Shown: piece after piece, positions 1 to 18,270 of the stretch
How positions within the stretch are numbered: the first letter of the stretch is position 1
How the letters are laid out: each line of letters opens with the position of its first letter
Translations under genes and position numbers: made by a program
Assembly: GCA_903885665.1 (NCBI GenBank)
Contig: CAISJL010000013.1
Span: forward strand, 4,689-68,688
Direction: 5' to 3'
Source of the DNA: an uncultured beta proteobacterium
GTDB lineage: Bacteria > Pseudomonadota > Gammaproteobacteria > Burkholderiales > SG8-41
Length of the DNA stretch: 64,000 nucleotides
The notes under the pieces: model-generated
Told to the model about the DNA's origin: nothing
Databases searched by the model: none
What the model saw: the letters and a program-made list of their open reading frames with translations, nothing else

Positions 1-429
1 CAGCTCCTTTATTGATTTTGCTGCTACCGTCGGATGCGCCATCAATACAAACGGTCCCGATGAAATTAAGCTAATTGGAGAGAAATCTTTAATCGTGTCA
101 TAAGGTACTTGCTGTCTTAAGTGCGGCAAAATAGTTAATGCACCCGGACTGCTAATAAATAAAGTATAGCCATCCGGATTAGCCTTTGCAGCCAACTCTG
201 CACCAATCATACCGCCAGCTCCCGCTCGATTATCAGCGACTAAAGGCTGTCCAAGTTGCTGGGAGATGCCCGGAAATACTAATCTCGCAGTCACATCGGG
301 ACTAGCGCCCGCCGGCACCGACAAAATAACTCGTATCGGCTTAGTTGGCCATGTTTCAGCCAAGACGCCACTCACACCGCTTATGAATGCCGTGATAACT
401 ATTCCAATGATCCAAGGGTATGCATGCAA
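1..429 (-). CDS. Bug/TctC family tripartite tricarboxylate transporter substrate-binding protein (5' part only, runs off the window edge)
   Basis: Not in the ORF track. Manual translation from TTG at 429 (GGAGA RBS upstream) gives a signal peptide then WPTKPIRVILSVPAGASPDVTAR...DNRAGAGGMIGAELAAKANPDGYTL. Confidence 0.9.
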   Translation of the reverse strand, partial: MHAYPWIIGIVITAFISGVSGVLAETWPTKPIRVILSVPAGASPDVTARLVFPGISQQLGQPLVADNRAGAGGMIGAELAAKANPDGYTLFISSPGALTILPHLRQQVPYDTIKDFSPISLISSGPFVLMAHPTVAAKSIKEL

Positions 430-626
430 GTTATATTTCTCCAAGAATTTTACTAAAGCTATCTGTTTATTTGATAATTTGCATGGTATCGCGTTCAAGC
501 CCTTACAGTAAATCGCTTTGTATATGGACTCTGCACCTCAAAAGCGCTGCTGGTAGTAGTGGATGACCTATAGTCAATGCTACTATTGGCATGTTTATTT
601 TATTTCATACCTTTAGGACATTACTC

Positions 627-4081: not shown

Positions 4082-5071
4082 CTATTGTGCTTTTATGTTT
4101 CCGGCATTGGCAATTGTGGTGAATATCGCGATATCGCTTGCGATCAATTTGTCAAACGCTGCAGGCGTTGTTGGGCTTGGCTCCAAGCCAATCGGTGCCC
4201 ATCGCTTACGCGCCTCAGGATCATTTAAAATTCGCGTCACTTCATGATTTAAACCCATCAAAATTGGCTTGGGGACCCGTTGCGCCGTAAGCAATCCAAA
4301 CCACAATATTGACTCGAATTTAGGTACGCCGGCTTCCGCAATGGTCGGTACATCGGGTAGCAATGGGTCCCGCTTGATAGATGAAACACCTAAACCTAAT
4401 AACTTACCCTCACGCACAAATACTACAGCATTCGCAATCGGTGACATAAAAAAATTTACTCGTCCAGTCAAAGACTCGGTTAACGCCTCTGGAATTCCCT
4501 TGAATGGAATATGCACTGCATCAATCTTTGCCATACTCTTAAATAACTCACCAGCAAAATGACTACCGCTACCTACCCCGGCTGATGAGAAATTAAATTG
4601 TCCAGATTTTTGTTGTGCGGCTTGCATTAGATCTTTTAAATTTTTATAGCCGGATGTTGGCGATGTCACCAATACATATTTAGATACCGCTGTTTGCGAA
4701 ATTCCTGCAAAGTCACGCAATGCATTAAAAGGCAATTGTGAATAAATTGCAGGTGCAACAGCATGTGCAGAGGATACAGCTAGCAATGTATAGCCATCCG
4801 GATTTGCATTAGCTGTAATATTAGCAGCTATCGTGCCCCCTGCACCGGGACGATTATCAACAATCACTTGTTGCTTATATTCCTCTGATAACCGTTGTGA
4901 TATATAGCGTGCGGTAATATCTGGCCCTCCTCCCGGAGTAAACCCGACTAATATTCGTATGGGTTTTATAGGGTAATCAGCTGTGACTGCGCGACTTGCT
5001 GCAGTGTACAAACCGCACCAAAAAAATAAACTCATTACAATTACATAACATACATTCCTTAAACCCATCAC
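4082..5071 (-). CDS. Bug/TctC family substrate-binding protein
   Basis: Signal peptide, YPIKPIRILVGFTPGGGPDITAR, DNRPGAGG, PDGYTL, HIPFKG, LPDVPTIAE. Confidence 0.93.
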   Translation of the reverse strand: MMGLRNVCYVIVMSLFFWCGLYTAASRAVTADYPIKPIRILVGFTPGGGPDITARYISQRLSEEYKQQVIVDNRPGAGGTIAANITANANPDGYTLLAVSSAHAVAPAIYSQLPFNALRDFAGISQTAVSKYVLVTSPTSGYKNLKDLMQAAQQKSGQFNFSSAGVGSGSHFAGELFKSMAKIDAVHIPFKGIPEALTESLTGRVNFFMSPIANAVVFVREGKLLGLGVSSIKRDPLLPDVPTIAEAGVPKFESILWFGLLTAQRVPKPILMGLNHEVTRILNDPEARKRWAPIGLEPSPTTPAAFDKLIASDIAIFTTIANAGNIKAQ

Positions 5072-5283
5072 ATCACTCCAATAACTGTTATAAAAAAATG
5101 CTTTTTTAAAAAGTCTCGTTTATATCAACTCATTGCTTACAGACTGAATGCATCCAGATTGTTTTTAGCGAATTATTTTTAAGTTTTTCATAATATAGTA
5201 TGCACTATAACAGTCCAAAATCATTGATGTCACGATATGGACGGCTCCAGATCAAACATTGCCGGTAATTTTCAATAATTTAG

Positions 5284-5295
5284 GTATGATCATAC
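5284..5295. promoter_or_regulatory. Perfect 12-bp palindrome, candidate operator
   Basis: GTATGATCATAC lies 17 nt upstream of the SDR ATG at 5313, in a divergent Bug/SDR spacer. Confidence 0.35.
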
Positions 5296-5312
5296 TTTTT
5301 GAAAGTCTAAAC

Positions 5313-6092
5313 ATGTCAACTTACCACACTCCTGTATCCATTAATCCTAAACCTCTTATTGGTGAAGTTGCACTCATTACTGGTGCAGCAAAAAATATTG
5401 GTCGGTCTATCGCACTAGAGCTTGCAGCAGCAGGTGCTACTGTTGCTATCAATACTCGTAGCTCATTGTCTGAAGCGAATGCCGTTGCTACAGAGGTTCA
5501 TGCAATGGGTGGTAATGCCGCCGTTTTTGTAGCAGATATTGCAGACCCAGAAGCAGTCAAGCAAATGTGCGCTGCAGTTGTTAGCACACTGGGAACAATT
5601 ACAACCCTTGTATTGAATGCTTCTGTTCGCCAAGAAATTCCATTCACTGAAATGACTTTTAGTCAGTGGCGAGAAGTCATGTCTATCTCACTCGATGGCT
5701 CATTTCATTGCATTAAAAATGTTATGCCTGGAATGCTTGCAAGAGGCTGCGGCAATATCATTACCTTAGCAGGGGACACTGCATTGACAGGTGCGATTGG
5801 CAAGGTGCACAGTTCATCTGCAAAAAGTGGCTTAGCGGGAATGACTCGGGCTTTAGCACGCGAGCTCGGACCCCAAGGGATTCGTGTCAACTGCGTCTCA
5901 CCGGGTAGCTTTAATACCACACGACCATCATCTCGACCCGCACGCCAACCTGCTGCCGGTCGAATTCCTCTAGGTCGATGGGGTGATTCGGCAGAGTGCG
6001 CTGCCACCGTTCGTTTTTTATGTAGCCCTGAATCAGGCTTTATTACTGGCCAAACTATTCACATTAATGGCGGCCAATGGACTTTTGCATAA
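5313..6092 (+). CDS. SDR family oxidoreductase, atypical active site (paralog of 627..1376)
   Basis: TGAAKNIG, LNASVR, VHSSSAK in place of YxxxK, IRVNCVSPG. Start ATG 5313 preferred over TTG 5259. Confidence 0.88.
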   Translation: MSTYHTPVSINPKPLIGEVALITGAAKNIGRSIALELAAAGATVAINTRSSLSEANAVATEVHAMGGNAAVFVADIADPEAVKQMCAAVVSTLGTITTLVLNASVRQEIPFTEMTFSQWREVMSISLDGSFHCIKNVMPGMLARGCGNIITLAGDTALTGAIGKVHSSSAKSGLAGMTRALARELGPQGIRVNCVSPGSFNTTRPSSRPARQPAAGRIPLGRWGDSAECAATVRFLCSPESGFITGQTIHINGGQWTFA

Positions 6093-6195
6093 ACTACATT
6101 TCAGAAGTTGGCTTGATTTAACGTCCTGATTTAGCATCTTAATTCACCTCTTTAATTAAACACAATCGATCCATTTATTTTTAAAAGGAGTTTAC

Positions 6196-6768
6196 ATGTC
6201 CACTCTTACCCCACGCCTTCCCAAAATTCCACCAGAGCAAATGACCGAAGAGCAAAAAAAAGTAGCAGCAGAAATTGTGGCAGGTCCTCGTGGTGAGTTA
6301 CGCGGCCCCTACATTCCGCTTATTCGTAGTCCAGGGCTTGCCAGTCCACTTCAGCAAGTGGGCGAATATCTTCGCTTCGGCTCTCCCCTTGATCGACGTA
6401 TTGCAGAGATGGCCACATTATTAGCTGCACGTCATTGGACACAACATTATGAATGGATTGCGCATCACAAACATGCCATGACTGCCGGATTAAGCCCGGA
6501 AATTGCCCAAGCTATTGCCGAGGGTCGGCGTCCCACGAATATGGCTGCTGATGAAGATGCCGTATATGATCTTGTCATGGAATCGTTAAATAATAAAAGT
6601 GTTTGCGATACCACCTACAATCGTGCGCTAGTATTATTTGGCGAGCAAGGCATTATTGATTTATTGGGTATCTCAGGATACTACGCACTGCTCGCGATGA
6701 TTCTTAATGTTGCGCGCACTCCGTTACCTGTTGGTCGCGATCCAATGATGCCTTGGTTTCCCCACTAA
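6196..6768 (+). CDS. Carboxymuconolactone decarboxylase (CMD/AhpD-like) family protein
   Basis: GPRG..RGP..P..RSP, ExxxLxxAR, YEWxAH; no CxxC; AAGGAG RBS. Confidence 0.85.
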   Translation: MSTLTPRLPKIPPEQMTEEQKKVAAEIVAGPRGELRGPYIPLIRSPGLASPLQQVGEYLRFGSPLDRRIAEMATLLAARHWTQHYEWIAHHKHAMTAGLSPEIAQAIAEGRRPTNMAADEDAVYDLVMESLNNKSVCDTTYNRALVLFGEQGIIDLLGISGYYALLAMILNVARTPLPVGRDPMMPWFPH

Positions 6769-6831
6769 TATTGCTAAAAAATTAATCTGTTCTTACTACT
6801 TACACTTCTTGCCGGACACAGCTTCGCCTCC

Positions 6832-7968
6832 ATGGCGGTGCTGGTCTTGGCGGCGGTCGCCCCAGCCGTTGCCCTAGATTATGGTATTAATAGTTCGCTC
6901 ATTGGTTACCAAATCAGTTTGATTAGTTTTGGGATGATGTTAACCCTCACATTATTAGGTAATACGAGCAAACGATATGGAGCGGCACGCACTAATCAAA
7001 TTGGGCACGCTTTCATCGCAAGCGGTATTTTAATACTACTCATACCTTGGCTACCATTTCTGATCGTGGGATCACTGATTATTGGTTTAGGCTACGGCAT
7101 GATCACCCCTTCCGCCTCTCATTTACTGATGCGTTATACCTTGCCACATCGTCGTAGCACAGTATTTTCTATCCATCAAATCGGAATCCCTGCAGGTGGC
7201 ATACTTGCATCCTCGATCGCACCTGCGATCACTGTGTATGCAAGTTGGCACTGGGCAGTACTTTTTAGTGCAAGTCTGTTAGTTTGTGTTGTATTACTCA
7301 TGCAAGTACGGCGCCATCATTGGGACGATGATCGCGATCAAAGTGCGGCTATCATCACCCCCAATCCATTTGCAGGTACTCAAGCAATTTGGGCTCATCC
7401 CAAGCTAAGACTTGCCACACTGGCCGGCAGTTGCTTTTCGTGGGTACAATTCTGCACAGCGACATTCACGGTTGTTGCTTGTGTATCTGTATTGCAGATG
7501 GACTTGTTAATTGCAGGCACTGTATTGTCTGTAGTACAACTCTCAAGCGCAGCTGGTCGAGTATTAATGGGGTGGATTGTCGATCGTATTAATAACACAA
7601 TCATCGTCCTGGGTTTCAATGCAGCCATCTTAATCATTGCTACTATCGCAACCCTTTTTTTAACCCCAGAATTGCCATTATTTGCAATCTATATTTTATT
7701 TGCGGTTCTTGGTGCAACCTCTGGTAGCTGGCCAGGAGTGCTGTTATCCGAAGTGGGACGACTAGCCCCCTCGGGAAATGTTAGCTTAGCCATCAGCGGT
7801 TCTCTAGTCATTACGAACGTAGGTAAATTTTTAGGACCTATTATTTTCGTCAATATGTATGCTTATTCACAACAATATACCCTAACATTTGCAGCTCTTA
7901 CTGTACCAGCAGTAATTGCTTTATATAGTTTATATGCGGCTCAGCAACAATCAGAACAGACCACATAA
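6832..7968 (+). CDS. MFS transporter (true start may lie upstream, about 6771-6781)
   Basis: About 12 hydrophobic segments and the GRVLMGWIVDR motif. The frame is open upstream to 6778 and encodes the rest of TM1. Confidence 0.85.
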   Translation: MAVLVLAAVAPAVALDYGINSSLIGYQISLISFGMMLTLTLLGNTSKRYGAARTNQIGHAFIASGILILLIPWLPFLIVGSLIIGLGYGMITPSASHLLMRYTLPHRRSTVFSIHQIGIPAGGILASSIAPAITVYASWHWAVLFSASLLVCVVLLMQVRRHHWDDDRDQSAAIITPNPFAGTQAIWAHPKLRLATLAGSCFSWVQFCTATFTVVACVSVLQMDLLIAGTVLSVVQLSSAAGRVLMGWIVDRINNTIIVLGFNAAILIIATIATLFLTPELPLFAIYILFAVLGATSGSWPGVLLSEVGRLAPSGNVSLAISGSLVITNVGKFLGPIIFVNMYAYSQQYTLTFAALTVPAVIALYSLYAAQQQSEQTT

Positions 7969-8049
7969 AATTAACTCACATAATGCGCATATTCATTTTT
8001 AACAGTGCACATTTTTATTTTTCTGTAAATTTATCGAGCTCGCATCTAT

Positions 8050-8826
8050 ATGAACACGATACTAAAGGTATTTTTCATAATCAGCATTTTAATAACATTT
8101 ACTGCACGTTCTCAAACACCCAGCCCGCAAATGCAATACAACGATGCATGCGCCCACTGCCATACACCTGGACTTGGTGGCGCACCTCGCTTAGGTTCAG
8201 CTAAAGACTGGAGTGCACGCATCCGTCCTGGCCTTAATTTACTGTATCAATCAGCACTATATGGTGTACCCAATACAACCATGTCCGCCAAAGGTGGATA
8301 CAAAGAATTAAGTGATATTAATGTACGTGCAATCGTCGATTTCATTCTGAGCGCAAGTCAAATAACACCTTTGCAACTTGCTGCCGCAGTTCGCTATGAT
8401 ACGCTAGGTATTAAAGACCGTGAATTCATTTATTTAGATGCTAATTTTGACGGCGTGTTAAATAAGCAAGAACTTGGTCGCGATTCGATGTTGACTGATA
8501 AGCTATCACGCTTTGACCAAAATTTTGATGGTGTAATTAGCTTTAAAGAATACCAGACTCTAACTATTGAGCTTGAGGGGGATCGGACAAATGCTAATGT
8601 TACTGATTTAACAATCAGCAACGAGATTCACTTGATATTGCAATCTATGCCCCTACTAAAAGGGCAGGCCATAAAAATTGATGTGCAAGCTGGGCGCGTG
8701 ATAATCACTGGCATGGTCAATACAGCACAGGATATTCTTAGCGTGCAACGTGCCCTGCGTTGGGTCTCTGGCATTAAACAAATAGACAATCGTTTAGTAT
8801 CTGGGGCGCTATTAGCTTGGGACTAA
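8050..8826 (+). CDS. Exported cytochrome c5-like / EF-hand pair / BON domain fusion protein
   Basis: Signal peptide; CAHCH heme motif with c5-type GAP..G...DW..R and M..KGG; EF loops DANFDGVLNKQE and DQNFDGVISFKE; BON-like C-terminus (D..I...I...L...IKIDVQAGRVIITGMV...VSGIKQIDNRL). Confidence 0.8.
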   Translation: MNTILKVFFIISILITFTARSQTPSPQMQYNDACAHCHTPGLGGAPRLGSAKDWSARIRPGLNLLYQSALYGVPNTTMSAKGGYKELSDINVRAIVDFILSASQITPLQLAAAVRYDTLGIKDREFIYLDANFDGVLNKQELGRDSMLTDKLSRFDQNFDGVISFKEYQTLTIELEGDRTNANVTDLTISNEIHLILQSMPLLKGQAIKIDVQAGRVIITGMVNTAQDILSVQRALRWVSGIKQIDNRLVSGALLAWD

Positions 8827-8833
8827 TAGCGCC
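8805..8833. terminator. Hairpin overlapping the stop of the cytochrome c fusion gene
   Basis: Perfect 11-bp stem GGCGCTATTAG-N7-CTAATAGCGCC between convergent genes; weak U-tract. Confidence 0.45.
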
Positions 8834-8967
8834 ATTTGATTCAAACTAATCAGTAAGCTTAACGCAGTTGCTACCATTTTATTGCGAGCAGTAATTACTC
8901 ATTTTTACACTACTCAAAATATCATAGTCGTTATTCCACCTTGCAGCTAAATGGTTATTGGTACTAA

Positions 8968-9966
8968 TTATTGATTAGCAACAATACCTGCAGCCTTAAC
9001 CGTTTTTGCCCATTTTACTAGCTCAGTCCGGATATACGCTCCAGCTTCAGCGGGTGAGTTTCCAATGGGCACCGATCCTAATCGTGCAAATCGCTCACGC
9101 ACTTCAGGTAATCCAATAATTCGAACGGATTCTTTATTCAGTTTTTCAATGATTGGCGTTGGAATCTTAGCCGGTCCAATCAAGACGCCCCAAGAGGTCG
9201 ATTCATAGCCAGGCACTGTGTCTGCTATTGCCGGCACATCGGGCAACTCTGTTGAACGCTCTTTTGAAGTCACCCCCAAAGGTCGCAAACGCCCACCTTT
9301 AATATGCGGTAGTGTTGCAATAACCGTATCAAACATGACATCCACTCTGCCACCCATCAAATCTGGATGTGCTGCAGTGCTACCTTTATAGGGCACATGC
9401 AAAAGTTTTACCCCGGTCATCAGCTTAAATAATTCTGCGCTCATATGCGGTGAGCTCCCCGTACCACTGGAAGCAAAACTTAATTTATCAGGGCGCGCCT
9501 TAGCCATCTCAATCACATCTTTGACGGTTTTACCAGAAAACTGATTGTGGGTGACTAATATCAAAGGATTAGCTGCAGTAATTGTAATCATTGAAAAATC
9601 ACGGCTCGAATCATAGGGTAATTTATGAACTGCAGCATTCACTGCAAAGCTCAACGAACCCAAACCCAGCGTATATCCATCAGGGGCCGACTTTGCAACT
9701 AAGTCCGTACCAATAATGCCTGTAGCTCCAGTGCGATTATCAACGACTGCATTAACACCCCAAGTTTGAGAAAATTTTTCCGCGAGCATACGAGCAGTGA
9801 CATCTGAAGCACCGCCAGGTGGGAATGGCACAATAATTCGGATTGGGCGATCGGGATACGCTGCCATGGCCATGGTATTCATTAAAAAAGACGCTACGAT
9901 ACCTAAGTAACTTAATATCTGATTGGCGGCATTTGTGGTGCCCATGGTTTTGGTGTAAATCTTCAT
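8968..9966 (-). CDS. Bug/TctC family substrate-binding protein
   Basis: YPDRPIRIIVPFPPGGASDVTAR, APDGYTL, HVPYKG, KWAKTVKAAGI. Start ATG 9966 (GAGGG RBS) preferred over 10026. Confidence 0.93.
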   Translation of the reverse strand: MKIYTKTMGTTNAANQILSYLGIVASFLMNTMAMAAYPDRPIRIIVPFPPGGASDVTARMLAEKFSQTWGVNAVVDNRTGATGIIGTDLVAKSAPDGYTLGLGSLSFAVNAAVHKLPYDSSRDFSMITITAANPLILVTHNQFSGKTVKDVIEMAKARPDKLSFASSGTGSSPHMSAELFKLMTGVKLLHVPYKGSTAAHPDLMGGRVDVMFDTVIATLPHIKGGRLRPLGVTSKERSTELPDVPAIADTVPGYESTSWGVLIGPAKIPTPIIEKLNKESVRIIGLPEVRERFARLGSVPIGNSPAEAGAYIRTELVKWAKTVKAAGIVANQ

Positions 9967-10309
9967 ATTACCCTCTAGTTTAATTATTAATCGGTATAGT
10001 CTAGCAATTATAACGTTGTGGCACATGAATCCATATTCTCACCGACGTGCACAAGCAAAAAAACGTGCATTTAGCGCTGCACCTAATGCAGACTAAAGGC
10101 AAGGTCGATCCGTCCGTATTTTGAACTAATTGCCTGCCCTATATTACCTACGGACCTTAATTTCATATACTATCGAGGATCAATAAACTGCATCATACAA
10201 AATAATTGCTAGCCTTATTATTTGTTAATATGACTCATCTTTTAATCATATTTAAATCATTTTTTAACTTACTTGCCTTTGCATTAATACCATCTATTTT
10301 GGAGATCAT

Positions 10310-14999: not shown

Positions 15000-15971
15000 A
15001 TGAATAAATCTCTACGTTCAATCATCAGCACGCTCACGCTGGGGCTAATAATCACAACCATACAGGCCCAAAATTATCCAAACCGCGCTATACGTATCCT
15101 TATACCCTTTACTGTCGGTAGCGCTGCAGATGTCATAGCGCGTGCTATCGAGCCTGCGTTACGTGACCGACTTGGGCAAGCAATTGTGATTGACAATCGC
15201 GGCGGTGCCGGCGGCAATATTGCTGCTGAGCTTGCTGCTAAAAGCGTGCCTGATGGATATACCTTAATGATGGGCACAATTGGCACGCATGCGATTAATT
15301 TAAGTTTATATTCAAAGCTAAACTATCACCCAATTACCAGCTTTACACCCATTACTAAAGTTGGAGACAGTCCCAATATTTTAGTTGTTAATCCCAGTGT
15401 CCCAGCAAAAACAGTCAAAGAGCTAATCCAAATCGCTAAAAATAAACCAGGTATATTAAATTACGGCACTTCGGGCTCTGGCACTTCTGTGCATTTGTCA
15501 GCTGAGCTATTTAATAACATGGCCAAAGTTAAAACGATCCACGTACCGTTCAAAGGTGCTGCAGAAGCATTAACCGCACTTATTTCTGGGCAAACCGATT
15601 TAATGTTTGCCAGCATGTCTTCTGCAATCCCAATGATTAAAGCAAATCGTCTCCGGCCTCTGGGTGTCACCTCTCCAACTCGCACCGCTGCACTGCCTGA
15701 GATACCCACAATCTCTGAAGCTGGATTGCCTGGTTTTAATGCTGTTGCATGGTATGGCTTAGTGGGACCTGCAGGGCTACCCATTGCAATAGTGAGTGCT
15801 CTGAATAAAGCTATGCTCGATTGCCTAGCACAGCCCGATGTCAAAGCACGCCTAGCCAACTCTGGCGTCGAAACTGTTCCCGGTAATTCAGAGGAGTTTC
15901 GTAAATTAATTGAGTCTGAAATACCTAAATGGGCAGCAGTAGTTAAAGCTTCTGGCGCAAAAGCTGATTAA
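15000..15971 (+). CDS. Bug/TctC family substrate-binding protein
   Basis: YPNRAIRILIPF, DNRGGAGGNI, PDGYTL, HVPFKG, KWAAVVKASGAKAD. Confidence 0.93.
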   Translation: MNKSLRSIISTLTLGLIITTIQAQNYPNRAIRILIPFTVGSAADVIARAIEPALRDRLGQAIVIDNRGGAGGNIAAELAAKSVPDGYTLMMGTIGTHAINLSLYSKLNYHPITSFTPITKVGDSPNILVVNPSVPAKTVKELIQIAKNKPGILNYGTSGSGTSVHLSAELFNNMAKVKTIHVPFKGAAEALTALISGQTDLMFASMSSAIPMIKANRLRPLGVTSPTRTAALPEIPTISEAGLPGFNAVAWYGLVGPAGLPIAIVSALNKAMLDCLAQPDVKARLANSGVETVPGNSEEFRKLIESEIPKWAAVVKASGAKAD

Positions 15972-17023: not shown

Positions 17024-18025
17024 TTACTCCATCGCCATTTCACTCACGATCGGCCCCCAACGACGTAACTCCTTCTGTACAAATTGCGCGGTACGCTCGG
17101 GAGAGGTGCTGACAACAGGTTCGGCACCTGCCTGCCTTAAAAACTCTTGCATCTGTGATAGCGCCATAATTTTAGCATTGGCTTGACTGAGGGCATCTAC
17201 AACTGCACGCGGCGTATTGGCCGGCAAAAACAATGCATTAAAAGCTTGCACAACCAACTCTGGCATACCAGCTTGTCCCGATGTTGGAACATCAGGCACT
17301 GCATGTAAACGCTCTTCAGCACAAATCACCAACATTCGAATGCGGCCTGCTTTGTGATACTGCAGTGGGGCAGGACTAATCGTTGGCATATAGACAGGAA
17401 TATGTCCTGCGACCAAGTCGCTAAGGCCCGGACCTGCCCCCTTATACGGAATATGAACCATCTTTAAATCACCGCCTAATTTTTTTAACAACTCGCCTGT
17501 CAAATGCGTGATGCTTCCGGTGCCAGCCGAACCATACGATAACTGCCCAGGATTCTTTTTCGCAAAATTCACCAGCTCTTTTAACGCCTTAACTGGCATC
17601 GATGGGTGCACTGCAACTCCAGTAGGCACCATTGTGATAATCCCTAATGGGGTGAAATCTTTAATTGGGTCATAGCCCAAATTTTTATTACCTAATGGAT
17701 TTAGCACATGAGTAGTAGTGTTAGCGATGAGTAACGTATGGCCATCTGGTTTAGCGCGAACAACCTCCATTGCACCTATTGCCCCAGATGCACCCGCGCG
17801 ATTATCAATCACTATAGCCTGCCCTAATACTCGGGTCATCTCCTGAGCCCAACGCCTACCAATGATGTCATTAACACCCCCAGGTGCAAACGGCACCACA
17901 AGACGAATTGGACGATCAGGAAACTTAGTTTGTGCAGCCGATTGGCATACTGCGCCATACATGAATATGAAAATTAAGATCGACCGCTTTAGATTCAAAG
18001 ACTCCAAACGCCAAATCGACGACAT
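17024..18025 (-). CDS. Bug/TctC family substrate-binding protein
   Basis: FPDRPIRLVVPFAPGGVNDI, DNRAGASG, KPDGHTL, HIPYKG. ATG 18025 with AAGGAG RBS. Confidence 0.93.
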   Translation of the reverse strand: MSSIWRLESLNLKRSILIFIFMYGAVCQSAAQTKFPDRPIRLVVPFAPGGVNDIIGRRWAQEMTRVLGQAIVIDNRAGASGAIGAMEVVRAKPDGHTLLIANTTTHVLNPLGNKNLGYDPIKDFTPLGIITMVPTGVAVHPSMPVKALKELVNFAKKNPGQLSYGSAGTGSITHLTGELLKKLGGDLKMVHIPYKGAGPGLSDLVAGHIPVYMPTISPAPLQYHKAGRIRMLVICAEERLHAVPDVPTSGQAGMPELVVQAFNALFLPANTPRAVVDALSQANAKIMALSQMQEFLRQAGAEPVVSTSPERTAQFVQKELRRWGPIVSEMAME

Positions 18026-18270
18026 GCACAACTCTCCTTCAAAGTTACCTTATGAATACAATCACTTAAATTGCATTTTTTACGTTTACAGAAAGAATAG
18101 AGTTAGCATTCTCATGTCTTAGAGCAATCATACAACATGAGCTAATATGCACAAAAAACACACACAATAGCTAAACTTCAATCATAGTCGTGATGCTAAA
18201 TCGTATCTCTCATTTGCGCAACTGACTACAATGCTGGGCGTCCGTTAATTAAACGGGTCCGATTAAGTCA

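What the first reader, a model, noticed from the sequence alone, without database searches (positions are those of the whole stretch)
8050..8826. Exported cytochrome c5 / tandem EF-hand / BON three-domain fusion
Seen: one 258-aa ORF with a signal peptide, a c5-type heme domain (CAHCH at residues 34-38, distal Met in TTMSAKGG), two canonical 12-residue EF-hand loops (DANFDGVLNKQE, DQNFDGVISFKE) and a BON-like domain. Known: c5 cytochromes carry periplasmic electrons, EF-hands bind Ca2+ (lanthanides in lanmodulin), and BON domains bind phospholipids or the envelope. I know of no characterised protein combining all three. Inference: a metal-ion-gated, envelope-tethered electron carrier or redox/Ca sensor. 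It follows the SDR-CMD-MFS genes on the same strand (81-nt gap).
Basis: partly seen in the sequence, partly recalled or inferred. Interest (0 to 1): 0.7.

Follow-up and report, generated by a model that had tools for sequence, protein, structure and literature searches.

The report
Exported cytochrome c5–EF-hand–BON fusion protein
This gene encodes a real, conserved but unstudied secreted protein of freshwater-type Burkholderiales that joins a heme electron-carrier domain to a calcium-binding pair and an envelope-binding BON domain, most likely a cytochrome held at the cell envelope.

Summary
Window 8050-8826 (+) encodes a 258-aa protein. Its cytochrome c, EF-hand and BON parts all pass Pfam's curated cut-offs.

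It is not a chance fusion. Two searches found 36 and about 110 full-length relatives of 227-288 aa. In 111 aligned members the heme motif C-x-x-C-H, the axial Met, the first Asp of each EF loop, the last Glu of loop 2 and the C-terminal Asp are invariant.

AlphaFold gives a confident, apparently compact three-domain model (pLDDT 92.3, pTM 0.81). The domains match c-556/c-554/c5 cytochromes (Z 10-14) and OsmY/DolP/BonA BON domains (Z 7-10).

The EF-hand+BON half also occurs alone as an exported protein in other Burkholderiales. Rare natural variants lack the EF pair or the heme domain.

The link to the upstream SDR/CMD-like/MFS genes is weak. Two same-genus genomes keep that block without this gene.

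Seven literature searches found no study of this architecture. My best reading is a Ca2+-stabilised periplasmic electron carrier localised at the envelope. Ca2+ gating is untested. I rate it a new variant of known kinds, of moderate interest.

The parts
8050..8826 (+). Whole gene: 258-aa exported cytochrome c5-like / EF-hand pair / BON protein (stop codon 8824-8826)
   Evidence: full-length relatives
8050..8112 (+). Putative Sec signal peptide (residues 1-21; proposed cleavage after A-R-S)
   Evidence: Read by eye. Relatives carry a hydrophobic N-terminus ending A-x-A. It forms a helix at residues 2-18 in the models. No predictor was run.
8122..8364 (+). Class I monoheme cytochrome domain of the c5/c-555 group (residues 25-105)
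   Evidence: Pfam PF13442 and PF00034 both above cut-off. PDB profile hits: c-555 at 8.7e-20, c551 at 2.2e-13, c5 at 8.3e-13. VIA-align: Z 13.9 c-556, 12.8 c-554, 12.6 c551, 10.8 and 10.1 c5.
8149..8163 (+). Heme attachment motif C34-A-H-C37-H38
   Evidence: Read. C34, C37 and H38 are present in 111 of 111 aligned members.
8281..8283 (+). Met78, predicted sixth (axial) heme ligand
   Evidence: Present in 111 of 111 members. It aligns with the Met of the MPAKGG segment of cytochrome c-555 4j20 (alignment).
8368..8424 (+). Conserved linker helix (residues 107-125; family consensus L-x-A-A-x-R-Y-D-x-L-G-I-x-D-R)
   Evidence: Counts (of 42): L110 39, A113 41, Y116 40, I121 40, R124 40, F126 42. 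Helix at 107-119 with pLDDT about 93-95.
8437..8472 (+). EF-hand loop 1, DANFDGVLNKQE (residues 130-141)
   Evidence: Pfam EF-hand_5. Of 111 members: D1 111, position 3 is N, S or D in 110, D5 110, G6 111, E12 110. The relaxed canonical pattern fits 109 of 111.
8515..8550 (+). EF-hand loop 2, DQNFDGVISFKE (residues 156-167)
   Evidence: Of 111 members: D1 111, position 3 is N or D in 111, D5 107, G6 106, E12 111. The relaxed canonical pattern fits 102 of 111. Short beta bridges at 136-137 and 162-163 pair the two loops in the models.
8605..8802 (+). BON domain (residues 186-251; helix, two strands, helix, strand)
   Evidence: Pfam BON 32.1 bits against cut-off 27. PDB profile hits: OsmY at 7.6e-13, YraP/DolP at 8.2e-11. 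VIA-align: Z 10.4 OsmY, 9.7 BonA, 9.3 and 9.2 DolP. Secondary structure.
8803..8823 (+). Family-specific C-terminal tail GALLAWD (residues 252-258), ending in an invariant [W/F]-D carboxy-terminus
   Evidence: Of 111 members: W257 104 and F257 7; D258 111. The tail is absent from the six stand-alone EF-BON proteins.
8805..8833 (+). Terminator-like hairpin (11-bp stem, 6 G-C pairs) that spans the stop codon
   Evidence: a consensus scan only; the total number of terminator-like sites is no higher than in shuffles
5259..7968 (+). Upstream same-strand genes: SDR (5259-6092), CMD-like 190-aa ORF (6196-6768) and MFS transporter (6832-7968). They may be co-transcribed with the target but are not obligatory partners.
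   Evidence: Pfam. Synteny in L004, L007, L008 and L010. The same block occurs without the target in G195 and G152.

Best explanation
The gene encodes an exported, heme-c-containing, Ca2+-binding protein of about 237 mature residues.

Proposed steps, each marked as shown or inferred:
1. A Sec signal peptide takes it to the periplasm (inferred).
2. The genome's System II machinery (ResB/CcsB type) attaches heme to C34/C37. His38 and Met78 are the axial ligands, giving a canonical class I cytochrome of the c5/c-555 group (motifs shown; chemistry inferred).
3. A conserved helix joins this domain rigidly to a canonical EF-hand pair, which continues through one long helix into a single BON domain and a short invariant [W/F]-D tail (a confident model; the rigidity is inferred from pTM alone).
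4. The EF-hand+BON half is a pre-existing exported module of Burkholderiales. By analogy with DolP, OsmY and BonA, I propose that it places the protein on a membrane or envelope surface.

The whole protein would then be an envelope-localised electron carrier. It would pass single electrons between periplasm-facing redox enzymes, such as bc1 and the aa3 oxidase or a di-heme peroxidase. Ca2+ would act mainly as a structural cofactor of the connector rather than as a switch.
For: The three domains pass Pfam cut-offs.

The family is conserved. There are 36 full-length relatives among the 40 hits. Most of the 118 hits are three-domain proteins. Six clusters at the 50% level are full length in the exhaustive search.

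In 111 aligned members, C34, C37, H38, M78, D130, G135, D156, E167 and D258 are invariant. Both EF loops fit the relaxed canonical pattern in 100 of 111 members.

The linker is highly conserved.

AlphaFold on 111 sequences gives mean pLDDT 92.3 and pTM 0.81, and all five models fall between 90.5 and 92.3.

The cytochrome domain matches known electron donors: c-556 (Z 13.9), c-554 (12.8), the c551 chain of a nitrite-reductase electron-transfer complex (12.6) and c5 (10.8, 10.1).

The BON domain matches OsmY, BonA and DolP with Z 9.2-10.4. The DolP entry title names phospholipid binding as the mechanism of localisation.

Stand-alone signal peptide + EF pair + BON proteins were found in 6 of 6 loci checked.

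The genome has ResB, one heme-copper oxidase beside a cytochrome-c-domain frame, a cytochrome c1 match and one CCP/MauG-type protein. Maturation machinery and possible partners therefore exist.

Near-identical fragments of the gene occur in freshwater and lake metatranscriptome contigs of three studies. One 244-nt contig spans the MFS end, the gap and the target start. This is only a weak hint, because RNA libraries can contain DNA.
Against: - No redox partner is encoded next to the gene in any context seen.
- Envelope binding by this BON domain is argued by analogy only. OsmY and Kbp show that BON domains can do other things.
- No coordinates or PAE were available, so 'rigid' rests on pTM and linker conservation.
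- Natural variants that lack the heme domain exist (L011), so the EF-BON half can persist alone.
- The gene is patchy. Full-length copies were found in 3 of 401 sampled genomes of the order, all in one genus, and in 3 of the 6 sampled genomes of that genus, counting the window's own. It is therefore accessory, not core respiration.
- The window's copy sits on a long branch with unusual composition.
Confidence: 0.45

Rival explanations
1. Ca2+-gated carrier or Ca2+/redox sensor. Ca2+ occupancy of the EF pair would change either the heme potential or accessibility, or the BON-mediated docking. Electron flow or localisation would then respond to periplasmic Ca2+.
For: The canonical Ca2+ ligands are strongly conserved. 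The conserved linker and the high pTM suggest that the EF pair is mechanically coupled to the heme domain. A functional link between a periplasmic cytochrome c and an EF-hand-like Ca2+ site has a precedent in TfcP/PilY1 (PMC8833165; abstract and passages read).
Against: EF-less members of the same family keep the heme domain, the BON domain and the tail: P0065, P0294 and P0296, i.e. 3 of the 118 hits. A second Atlas cluster has a 208-aa representative, 96 members, and lists cytochrome and BON families but no EF-hand. No signalling output domain or conserved regulator gene lies nearby in clade 1. Conservation of the ligands fits a permanently occupied structural site equally well.
Confidence: 0.17
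2. Non-redox envelope protein. The heme domain would be a structural or 'inert' module, as proposed for TfcP. The protein would act as a Ca2+-dependent envelope stabiliser, holdase or Ca2+ buffer, like OsmY-type BON proteins and the stand-alone EF-BON proteins.
For: The EF-BON module exists alone in many Burkholderiales. A heme-domain deletion variant exists (L011). TfcP shows that a periplasmic cytochrome c can serve Ca2+ binding rather than electron transfer. Clade-2 copies lie beside an exopolysaccharide-like cluster (GT2, HEAT, YaiO, response regulator, deacetylase) in 2 loci.
Against: Unlike TfcP, which has His/Cys ligation and a potential near -312 mV, this family keeps the canonical His/Met ligands in 111 of 111 members. 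It also keeps the c5-type surface motifs. This pattern is expected if electron transfer is under selection.
Confidence: 0.15
3. Dedicated periplasmic partner of the upstream SDR / CMD-like / MFS operon. The cytochrome would oxidise or reduce a small molecule moved by the MFS transporter.
For: The order SDR, CMD-like, MFS, target recurs on the same strand in L004 and L008. L007 has SDR, MFS, target and L010 has MFS, target. The MFS-target gap is only 9 nt in L004, L007 and L008. I found no terminator-like site between the MFS gene and the target in the window. A 244-nt contig from an RNA library bridges the junction.
Against: Same-genus genomes G195 and G152 carry SDR, CMD-like and MFS followed directly by the CBS gene, with no target. 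Same-genus G388 has the target elsewhere. Clade-2 members have unrelated neighbours. The neighbours are 67-77% identical between genomes whereas the target is 48%, so the synteny may simply be inherited.
Confidence: 0.1
4. Artefact: a chance ORF, a misassembly or an annotation-level fusion of separate genes.
For: The window comes from a 187-contig draft genome. Some relatives in metagenomes are visibly frameshifted or truncated (P0048 and P0055; the G278 copy is split across two contig ends).
Against: More than 100 independent full-length relatives show the same domain order and an uninterrupted frame. Their boundaries are conserved, and the single-chain model is confident.
Confidence: 0.01

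Closest known systems
Cytochromes c5 / c-555 / c-554 / c551 (class I monoheme; e.g. PDB 4j20, 8hn3, 2zon chain G, 1cc5, 5b6q, ScyA 1kx2)
   Same: CXXCH plus a distal Met in a GG-containing loop, about 80 residues, and the same fold (Z 9.6-13.9, rmsd 1.5-1.9 Å over 76-80 residues). The profile E-value reaches 8.7e-20. Relatives are named 'cytochrome c5' by one source.
   Different: Those proteins are stand-alone or joined only to a membrane anchor. None of the solved chains carries an EF-hand or a BON domain. The disulfide I recall from Azotobacter c5 cannot form here, because 110 of 111 members have only the two heme cysteines.
Membrane-anchored soluble-type cytochromes (e.g. Chlorobaculum c-556, whose soluble domain is 8hn3; cytochrome cy of bc1-cbb3 supercomplexes)
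   Same: A class I cytochrome domain is kept near the membrane by an added module. This is what I propose the EF-BON half does. c-556 is the best structural match (Z 13.9). PMC10172866 and bioRxiv 10.1101/2020.06.27.175620 were seen only in the search listing with abstracts.
   Different: Those use a transmembrane helix or a lipid anchor at the N-terminus. Here the N-terminus looks like a cleavable signal, and the proposed anchor is a C-terminal BON domain with a Ca2+-binding connector.
BON-domain envelope proteins DolP/YraP, OsmY, BonA and Kbp
   Same: A single BON fold with the order helix, two strands, helix, strand. Pfam score is above cut-off. Z is 9.2-10.4. Profile E-values are 7.6e-13 for OsmY and 8.2e-11 for DolP.
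   Different: DolP and OsmY have two BON domains, and DolP and BonA are lipoproteins (recalled). Here there is one BON domain, no lipobox cysteine, an extra [W/F]-D tail and two unrelated N-terminal domains. Lipid binding was not tested.
Stand-alone exported EF-hand-pair + BON proteins of Burkholderiales (uncharacterised; L029-L034)
   Same: They align from the first EF loop to the end of BON at 21-24% identity, with the same EF ligands and BON glycines. Pfam BON scores are 64-72 bits, and EF-hand families are also matched.
   Different: They are 164-221 aa long, with no cytochrome domain, no conserved R-Y-D linker and no [W/F]-D tail. I found no study of them.
TfcP, the noncanonical cytochrome c that stimulates Ca2+ binding by PilY1 (Myxococcus xanthus; PMC8833165)
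   Same: A periplasmic c-type cytochrome is functionally tied to an EF-hand-like Ca2+ site (abstract and passages read).
   Different: TfcP acts in trans on a beta-propeller adhesin. It has His/Cys ligation and a potential of about -312 mV, and the authors consider it not to be an electron carrier. The protein here has invariant His/Met ligands and its own canonical EF pair in cis.
Calmodulin-type EF-hand pairs and lanmodulin
   Same: Two 12-residue loops with D at position 1, D/N/S at 3, D/N at 5, G at 6, a hydrophobic residue at 8 and E at 12, paired by a short beta bridge. Profile hits are 9.5e-5 to calmodulin and 6.3e-4 to lanmodulin.
   Different: There is only one pair, embedded between two other domains. 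The LanM equivalog model scores 15.3 bits against a cut-off of 135. No member has Pro at loop position 2 (0 of 111); I recall that Pro as the lanmodulin hallmark.

Membership tests
Class I c-type cytochrome, c5/c-555 group | CXXCH heme-attachment motif | tested here: met
   C34-A-H-C37-H38. C, C and H are invariant in 111 of 111 members.
Class I c-type cytochrome, c5/c-555 group | Distal Met axial ligand in the C-terminal half | tested here: met
   M78 is invariant in 111 of 111 members. It aligns with the Met of c-555 in the profile alignment.
Class I c-type cytochrome, c5/c-555 group | Family HMM above the curated cut-off, and the fold | tested here: met
   PF13442 scores 37.1 bits against 27, and PF00034 scores 24.9 against 21.3. 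Z is 10.1-13.9 to c-556, c-554, c551 and c5.
Class I c-type cytochrome, c5/c-555 group | Export and a cytochrome c maturation system in the host | tested here: met
   A signal-like N-terminus (by eye). ResB (System II) scores 443 bits in the genome. CcmE was not found in a genome that is 99.97% complete.
Class I c-type cytochrome, c5/c-555 group | Covalently bound heme and a positive midpoint potential | not testable with these tools
   This needs heme staining, spectra and potentiometry.
Azotobacter-type cytochrome c5 in the strict sense | Intramolecular disulfide near the C-terminus (recalled feature) | tested here: not met
   The mature part has only the two heme cysteines in 110 of 111 members. 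I therefore file it as 'c5/c-555-like', not as a strict c5.
EF-hand pair (Ca2+-binding) | 12-residue loops with oxygen ligands at positions 1, 3, 5 and 12 and Gly at position 6 | tested here: met
   The window's loops are DANFDGVLNKQE and DQNFDGVISFKE. The relaxed pattern fits 109 of 111 (loop 1), 102 of 111 (loop 2) and 100 of 111 (both). The strict pattern fits both loops in 79 of 111.
EF-hand pair (Ca2+-binding) | Family HMM above cut-off, and paired helix-loop-helix geometry | tested here: met
   EF-hand_5 scores 34.2 bits against 25.9, with two stretches. Other EF-hand models fall below their cut-offs. Helices flank both loops, with beta bridges at 136-137 and 162-163.
EF-hand pair (Ca2+-binding) | Measured Ca2+ binding | not testable with these tools
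   This needs ITC, 45Ca overlay or a mobility shift.
Lanmodulin (LanM) | Equivalog HMM score, and Pro at loop position 2 (the Pro is recalled) | tested here: not met
   NF053806 scores 15.3 bits against a cut-off of 135. Pro at position 2 occurs in 0 of 111 members in either loop.
BON domain | Family HMM above cut-off, the alpha-beta-beta-alpha-beta fold and conserved glycines | tested here: met
   BON scores 32.1 bits against 27. Model elements: helix 186-198, strand 208-213, strand 216-223, helix 226-236, strand 244-251. G215 and G221 are nearly invariant (90% or more) and G241 is invariant. Z is 10.4 to OsmY and 9.2-9.3 to DolP.
BON domain | Binding of phospholipid or envelope | not testable with these tools
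   This needs liposome co-sedimentation or fractionation.
DolP/OsmY-type dual-BON proteins | Two tandem BON domains (plus a lipobox in DolP; recalled) | tested here: not met
   There is one BON stretch only, and no Cys in the signal region of the window's protein. The genome has a separate dual-BON gene on contig C91.
TfcP-type noncanonical cytochrome c | His/Cys heme ligation | tested here: not met
   The distal ligand position is Met in 111 of 111 members, and there is no spare Cys. The feature is taken from PMC8833165.

The most novel reading that the evidence does not exclude
The EF-hand+BON unit is a Ca2+-dependent envelope-docking module of Burkholderiales. In this family it has captured a c5-type cytochrome. 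The result would be the first bacterial respiratory electron carrier whose position at the membrane, or whose heme potential, is switched by periplasmic Ca2+. The invariant C-terminal [W/F]-D tail would be the element that links the BON domain back to the heme domain.
Probability: 0.15. Interest if true: 0.7.

Novelty: new variant of a known kind. Interest (0 to 1): 0.5.

Why it matters
Each domain is a textbook one. The combination, however, is a conserved and unstudied family with more than 100 sequence clusters, found in Burkholderiales MAGs, with fragments in freshwater and lake metatranscriptomes.

If the BON half localises the cytochrome, this would be a third way of tethering a periplasmic electron carrier, beside transmembrane helices and lipid anchors.

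If Ca2+ changes its potential or docking, it would link environmental Ca2+ to respiration in bacteria. It would also be a small, natural Ca2+-responsive heme protein of interest for biosensor work.

The stand-alone EF-BON proteins found on the way form an uncharacterised exported Ca2+-binding family that deserves the same tests.

Tried and rejected
1. Complex prediction, to test docking of the cytochrome half (residues 22-106, with heme and 2 Ca) against the EF-BON half (107-258). The queue was full and the tool was then declared unavailable. Nothing was folded, so inter-domain contacts remain untested.

3. Lanthanide/lanmodulin reading: rejected.

4. A full-length structural precedent. Foldseek against the PDB, VIA-align against 48,161 representative chains, and a second look at 990 Foldseek hits gave only single-domain matches. 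No listed chain covered two of the three domains. The EF region was barely sampled in those lists, so this says nothing about the EF fold itself.

5. Literature. 'BON domain' + 'cytochrome c' + 'EF-hand' returned 0 papers. 'BON domain' + 'EF-hand' returned 5. 'BON domain' + 'cytochrome c' returned 9. 'EF-hand' + 'periplasmic' + 'BON' returned 3. By title and abstract, none concerns such a fusion. Only open-access PMC and bioRxiv were searched, so subscription journals are not covered.

6. Neighbourhood as a guide to function. I found no redox enzyme or Ca2+ transporter conserved next to the gene.

7. Promoter scan of 5000-9100. Eight promoter-like sites were found against 9.6 expected from shuffles, and none lay in the 81-nt gap. 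This is uninformative.

8. RNA evidence. Only short contigs from four metatranscriptome runs were found, with small shares of 0.05-0.16. Parts of the gene without cover mean nothing, and expression is not shown.

9. The first AlphaFold run, on 20 sequences, was uneven (82.9 for the best model, 65.6-73.1 for the others). It was superseded by the 111-sequence run.

Full report
**1. The observation**

The ORF at window 8050-8826 (+) is listed mechanically. It translates into 258 residues without a stop.

- CAHCH at residues 34-38.
- Met78 in TTMSAKGG.
- The two 12-residue loops DANFDGVLNKQE (130-141) and DQNFDGVISFKE (156-167).
- An 81-nt gap after the MFS gene, which ends at 7968.

Pfam supports all three domains above their curated cut-offs:
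- Cytochrome_CBB3 scores 37.1 bits against a cut-off of 27, over residues 25-99.
- Cytochrom_C scores 24.9 against 21.3.
- EF-hand_5 scores 34.2 against 25.9, in two stretches.
- BON scores 32.1 against 27, over residues 186-250.

Other EF-hand models (EF-hand_7, _6, _1) fall below their cut-offs. NCBIfam has no model that fits, and the lanmodulin equivalog scores 15.3 bits against 135.

The N-terminus (MNTILK, a hydrophobic run, then A-R-S) looks like a Sec signal. That is my reading by eye, because no predictor was available.

**2. It is a family, not a chance fusion**

A word-indexed search of 5.8 billion proteins gave 40 hits. Thirty-six of them, plus the window's own protein, are 230-274 aa long and 36-50% identical. 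All of those carry precomputed cytochrome and BON families, and 32 of the 37 also carry EF-hand_5.

The exhaustive HMMER search of 1.84 billion cluster representatives found 2,833 hits at E<=0.001. Nearly all match only residues 25-105, that is, other cytochromes. About six clusters at the 50% level are full length: the window's own, P0042, P0046, P0047, P0050 and P0051.

A second indexed search, seeded with a clade-2 member, added 118 hits at E<=1e-20. Most are 245-265 aa long with the same three families. Sources name them 'cytochrome c5', 'c-type cytochrome' or 'hypothetical protein'.

The ESM Atlas holds a 111-member cluster with a 256-aa representative, listing cytochrome and BON families. 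A second cluster has a 208-aa representative and 96 members, and lists cytochrome and BON families but no EF-hand.

All twelve loci recovered from species-representative genomes come from MAGs. Eleven are labelled Betaproteobacteria, Burkholderiales or Bordetella. The twelfth (L015, labelled Pseudomonadota) matched the BON part only.

In a sample of 401 genomes of the window's order, full-length copies occur only in G000, G388 and G278. The G278 copy is broken across two contig ends. All three are in the window's genus, where 3 of the 6 sampled genomes carry the gene, counting the window's own. The gene is therefore accessory and patchy.

**3. What is conserved**

I aligned 111 full-length members as A3. 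A3 holds the 20 sequences of A1, four representatives, and 87 of the 118 hits. I left out EF-less and truncated forms, lengths outside 244-274 aa, and 17 clade-1 hits that are close to ones I kept. Those 17 are covered by the separate 42-sequence count.

Invariant residues:
- C34, C37, H38 and M78.
- D130 and G135 of loop 1.
- D156 and E167 of loop 2.
- The carboxy-terminal D258.

EF-loop patterns:
- The relaxed pattern D-x-[DNS]-x-[DNS]-G-x-[ILV]-x3-[DE] fits loop 1 in 109 of 111 members, loop 2 in 102 of 111, and both in 100 of 111.
- The strict pattern fits both loops in 79 of 111.
- No member has Pro at loop position 2 (0 of 111). I recall that Pro as the lanmodulin hallmark.

The mature part holds only the two heme cysteines in 110 of 111 members. 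The disulfide I recall from Azotobacter c5 therefore cannot form.

The segment between the heme domain and the first EF helix is unusually conserved for a linker. The counts out of 42 are L110 39, A113 41, Y116 40, I121 40, R124 40 and F126 42.

The last seven residues end in [W/F]-D in every member: W in 104, F in 7, and D258 in 111 of 111.

**4. Structure**

AlphaFold on 20 sequences gave pLDDT 82.9 and pTM 0.70, with uneven models. On 111 sequences it gave pLDDT 92.3 and pTM 0.81, and all five models scored 90.5-92.3.

The elements of the model are:
- Signal helix 2-18.
- A helical cytochrome domain, 26-102.
- Linker helix 107-119.
- Two helix-loop-helix units whose loops are paired by short bridges at 136-137 and 162-163.
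- A long exit helix, 165-181.
- A BON unit: helix 186-198, strands 208-213 and 216-223, helix 226-236, strand 244-251.
- A tail helix, 252-257.

A pTM of 0.81 for three small domains suggests a fixed mutual arrangement. This is an inference, because I had no PAE or coordinates.

Structure searches and the PDB sequence profile gave:
- The cytochrome domain matches c-556 (Z 13.9), c-554 (12.8), the c551 chain (2zon_G) of a nitrite-reductase electron-transfer complex (12.6) and two cytochromes c5 (10.8, 10.1).
- The BON domain matches OsmY (Z 10.4), BonA (9.7), the BON-like domain of CdsD (9.5) and DolP (9.3, 9.2).
- The PDB sequence profile agrees: c-555 at 8.7e-20, OsmY at 7.6e-13, c5 at 8.3e-13, DolP at 8.2e-11, calmodulin at 9.5e-5 and lanmodulin at 6.3e-4.
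- No listed solved chain covers two of the three domains.

**5. Modularity**

The order-wide scan showed many genomes that match only the C-terminal half, roughly profile positions 80-248. Twelve such genomes are listed.

I fetched six of these loci. All six encode 164-221-aa proteins with a hydrophobic N-terminus, an EF pair and a strong BON domain of 64-72 bits. They align with the window's protein from the first EF loop to the end of BON at 21-24% identity. They lack both the R-Y-D linker and the [W/F]-D tail. EF-BON is therefore an older exported module to which a c5-type domain was added.

Two kinds of natural deletion exist within the cytochrome-bearing family:
- P0065 (203 aa) goes from the linker straight into the pre-BON helix, so it has no EF pair. 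It nests inside clade 2. P0294 (202 aa) and P0296 (198 aa) list cytochrome and BON families but no EF-hand.
- The L011 copy keeps Y-x-x-x-C-A-V-C and then jumps to the linker, so it has lost the heme domain.

The window's own genome has no stand-alone EF-BON gene. Its only other BON match is one dual-BON gene.

**6. Genomic context**

In the window the gene follows an SDR, a 190-aa ORF and an MFS transporter on the same strand. The 190-aa ORF is only weakly CMD-like (20.6 bits against 23; Pfam for the others).

A terminator-like hairpin lies over the target's stop codon (8805-8833). No terminator-like site lies between the MFS gene and the target.

The same order recurs in L004 and L008. L007 has SDR, MFS, target and L010 has MFS, target. 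The MFS-target gap is 9 nt in L004, L007 and L008, and a CBS-pair gene lies on the other strand downstream in L004, L005, L007 and L008.

Between these genomes the neighbouring genes are 67-77% identical, while the target is only 48% identical.

Three observations argue against an obligatory link:
- Two same-genus genomes (G195, G152) have SDR, CMD-like and MFS followed directly by the CBS gene, with no target.
- In same-genus G388 the target is a clade-2 type. It lies next to a cluster of GT2, HEAT-repeat, YaiO, response-regulator and polysaccharide-deacetylase genes (L028); L009 shows the YaiO and response-regulator genes of such a cluster.
- Other clade-2 loci have unrelated neighbours.

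A maximum-likelihood tree of 50 rows separates a tight clade 1 (33 rows) from a more diverse clade 2 (15 rows). One exact duplicate, P0021 = L005, was dropped. The window's protein sits on a long branch (1.05) with atypical composition, nearest to clade 1, so its exact placement is unsure.

**7. Host capacity**

The genome is 3.03 Mb in 187 contigs and 99.97% complete. Searches of it gave:
- ResB of System II at 443 bits.
- No CcmE.
- One heme-copper oxidase catalytic subunit, with a cytochrome-c-domain frame just upstream of it.
- Twelve cytochrome-c-domain matches in all.
- A partial cytochrome c1 match about 3 kb beyond the window's end.
- One CCP/MauG-type protein.

Heme attachment and plausible redox partners are therefore available. 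None of the partners is adjacent to the gene.

**8. Expression**

Four freshwater or lake metatranscriptome runs hold small shares of the region. Contigs at 99% identity or better cover 8675-8825 (X1) and 8682-8832 (X3). A 244-nt contig (X4, two mismatches) spans 7918-8161, that is, the MFS end, the gap and the target start.

RNA libraries can contain DNA, and contigs cannot show transcript ends. This is only a weak hint of transcription and co-transcription.

**9. Mechanism**

Shown:
- The motifs, their conservation and the folds.
- The modular history of the family.
- The presence of a heme-maturation system in the host.

Inferred:
- Export to the periplasm.
- His/Met heme c with a positive potential.
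- Ca2+ occupancy of both loops.
- A rigid cytochrome-EF-BON body.
- Envelope localisation through BON, by analogy with DolP, whose PDB title names phospholipid binding as a localisation mechanism.

My best reading (0.45) is an envelope-localised single-electron carrier with structural Ca2+. The rivals are:
- Ca2+ gating or sensing (0.17).
- A non-redox envelope or Ca2+ role (0.15). TfcP gives a precedent: it is a periplasmic cytochrome c that stimulates Ca2+ binding by the EF-hand-like site of PilY1. It has His/Cys ligation and a potential of about -312 mV (PMC8833165; abstract and passages read).
- A dedicated partner of the SDR/CMD-like/MFS operon (0.10).
- An artefact (0.01).

The invariant His/Met pair argues for electron transfer. 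The EF-less natural variants argue that the EF pair modulates or stiffens the protein rather than being essential. The invariant [W/F]-D tail occurs only when a cytochrome domain is, or recently was, present. It is unexplained. It may close the BON domain back onto the heme domain, or it may act as an interfacial anchor.

**10. Novelty**

Seven full-text searches found no paper on this architecture or on EF-BON proteins (with the listing in 52 used only for anchored cytochromes). Subscription journals are not covered.

The family is catalogued automatically but is uncharacterised. I rate it a new variant of known kinds: a tethered class I cytochrome and a BON envelope protein. The interest is moderate (0.5).

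Noticed in passing
L011:7704-8459 (+): This is a member of the family in which the heme domain is missing. The sequence runs Y-M-R-D-C-A-V-C and then directly into the conserved linker (Q-P-Q-V-L-A-A-A-R-R-Y-D), followed by an intact EF pair, BON domain and G-W-D tail. Pfam finds no cytochrome domain. It could be a natural deletion or a MAG assembly error.
   Followed up: partly
P0065 (203 aa), P0294 (202 aa), P0296 (198 aa); Atlas cluster with a 208-aa representative and 96 members: These are EF-less members: cytochrome domain, linker, then directly the pre-BON helix, BON and the tail. P0065 nests inside clade 2 of the tree, so the EF pair was lost secondarily at least once.
   Followed up: partly
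L029:4989-5549(-), L034:4989-5537(-), L031:4992-5486(-), L030:4950-5513(+), L033:4824-5396(+), L032:4722-5387(+): Stand-alone exported EF-hand-pair + BON proteins (164-221 aa) occur in several Burkholderiales genera, with BON scores of 64-72 bits. I found no study of them. Their neighbours differ: PurL and a membrane protein in two loci, and DUF2490 and a lipocalin in two others.
   Followed up: partly
Its orthologs in L004 and L008 score 19.4 and 22.0 bits. It is a divergent CMD/AhpD-like protein at best.
   Followed up: partly
window 8805-8833 (+): An 11-bp hairpin (6 G-C pairs) is formed by the codons of the conserved tail (ALLAWD), the stop codon and the bases just after it. It is terminator-like but has a weak T run.
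   Followed up: no
L028:8842-14620 and L009:780-2245: Clade-2 copies lie beside a gene set that looks like an exopolysaccharide cluster. In L028 it comprises GT2, a HEAT-repeat protein, a YaiO beta-barrel, a receiver-only response regulator and a polysaccharide deacetylase. In L009, YaiO and the response regulator are present.
   Followed up: partly
L036 (G195) and L037 (G152): In two same-genus genomes the SDR, CMD-like and MFS block is followed directly by the CBS-pair gene. The cytochrome gene is therefore a presence/absence polymorphism at the MFS|CBS junction.
   Followed up: yes
window 1-498(-), 4082-5071(-), 8968-10026(-), 15000-15971(+), 17024-18031(-): There are five TctC/Bug-type periplasmic binding-protein genes within 18 kb. 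Only 8968-10026 was confirmed by Pfam. 4082-5071 is 74% identical to the Pfam-confirmed TctC of L004. The other three are read by eye.
   Followed up: partly
G000:C13:71595-71756 (about 3 kb beyond the window's end): This is the genome's only match to cytochrome c1. It covers positions 165-218 of the 219-position model and scores 37.4 bits. The bc1 complex may therefore lie on the same contig, about 58 kb downstream of the gene.
   Followed up: no
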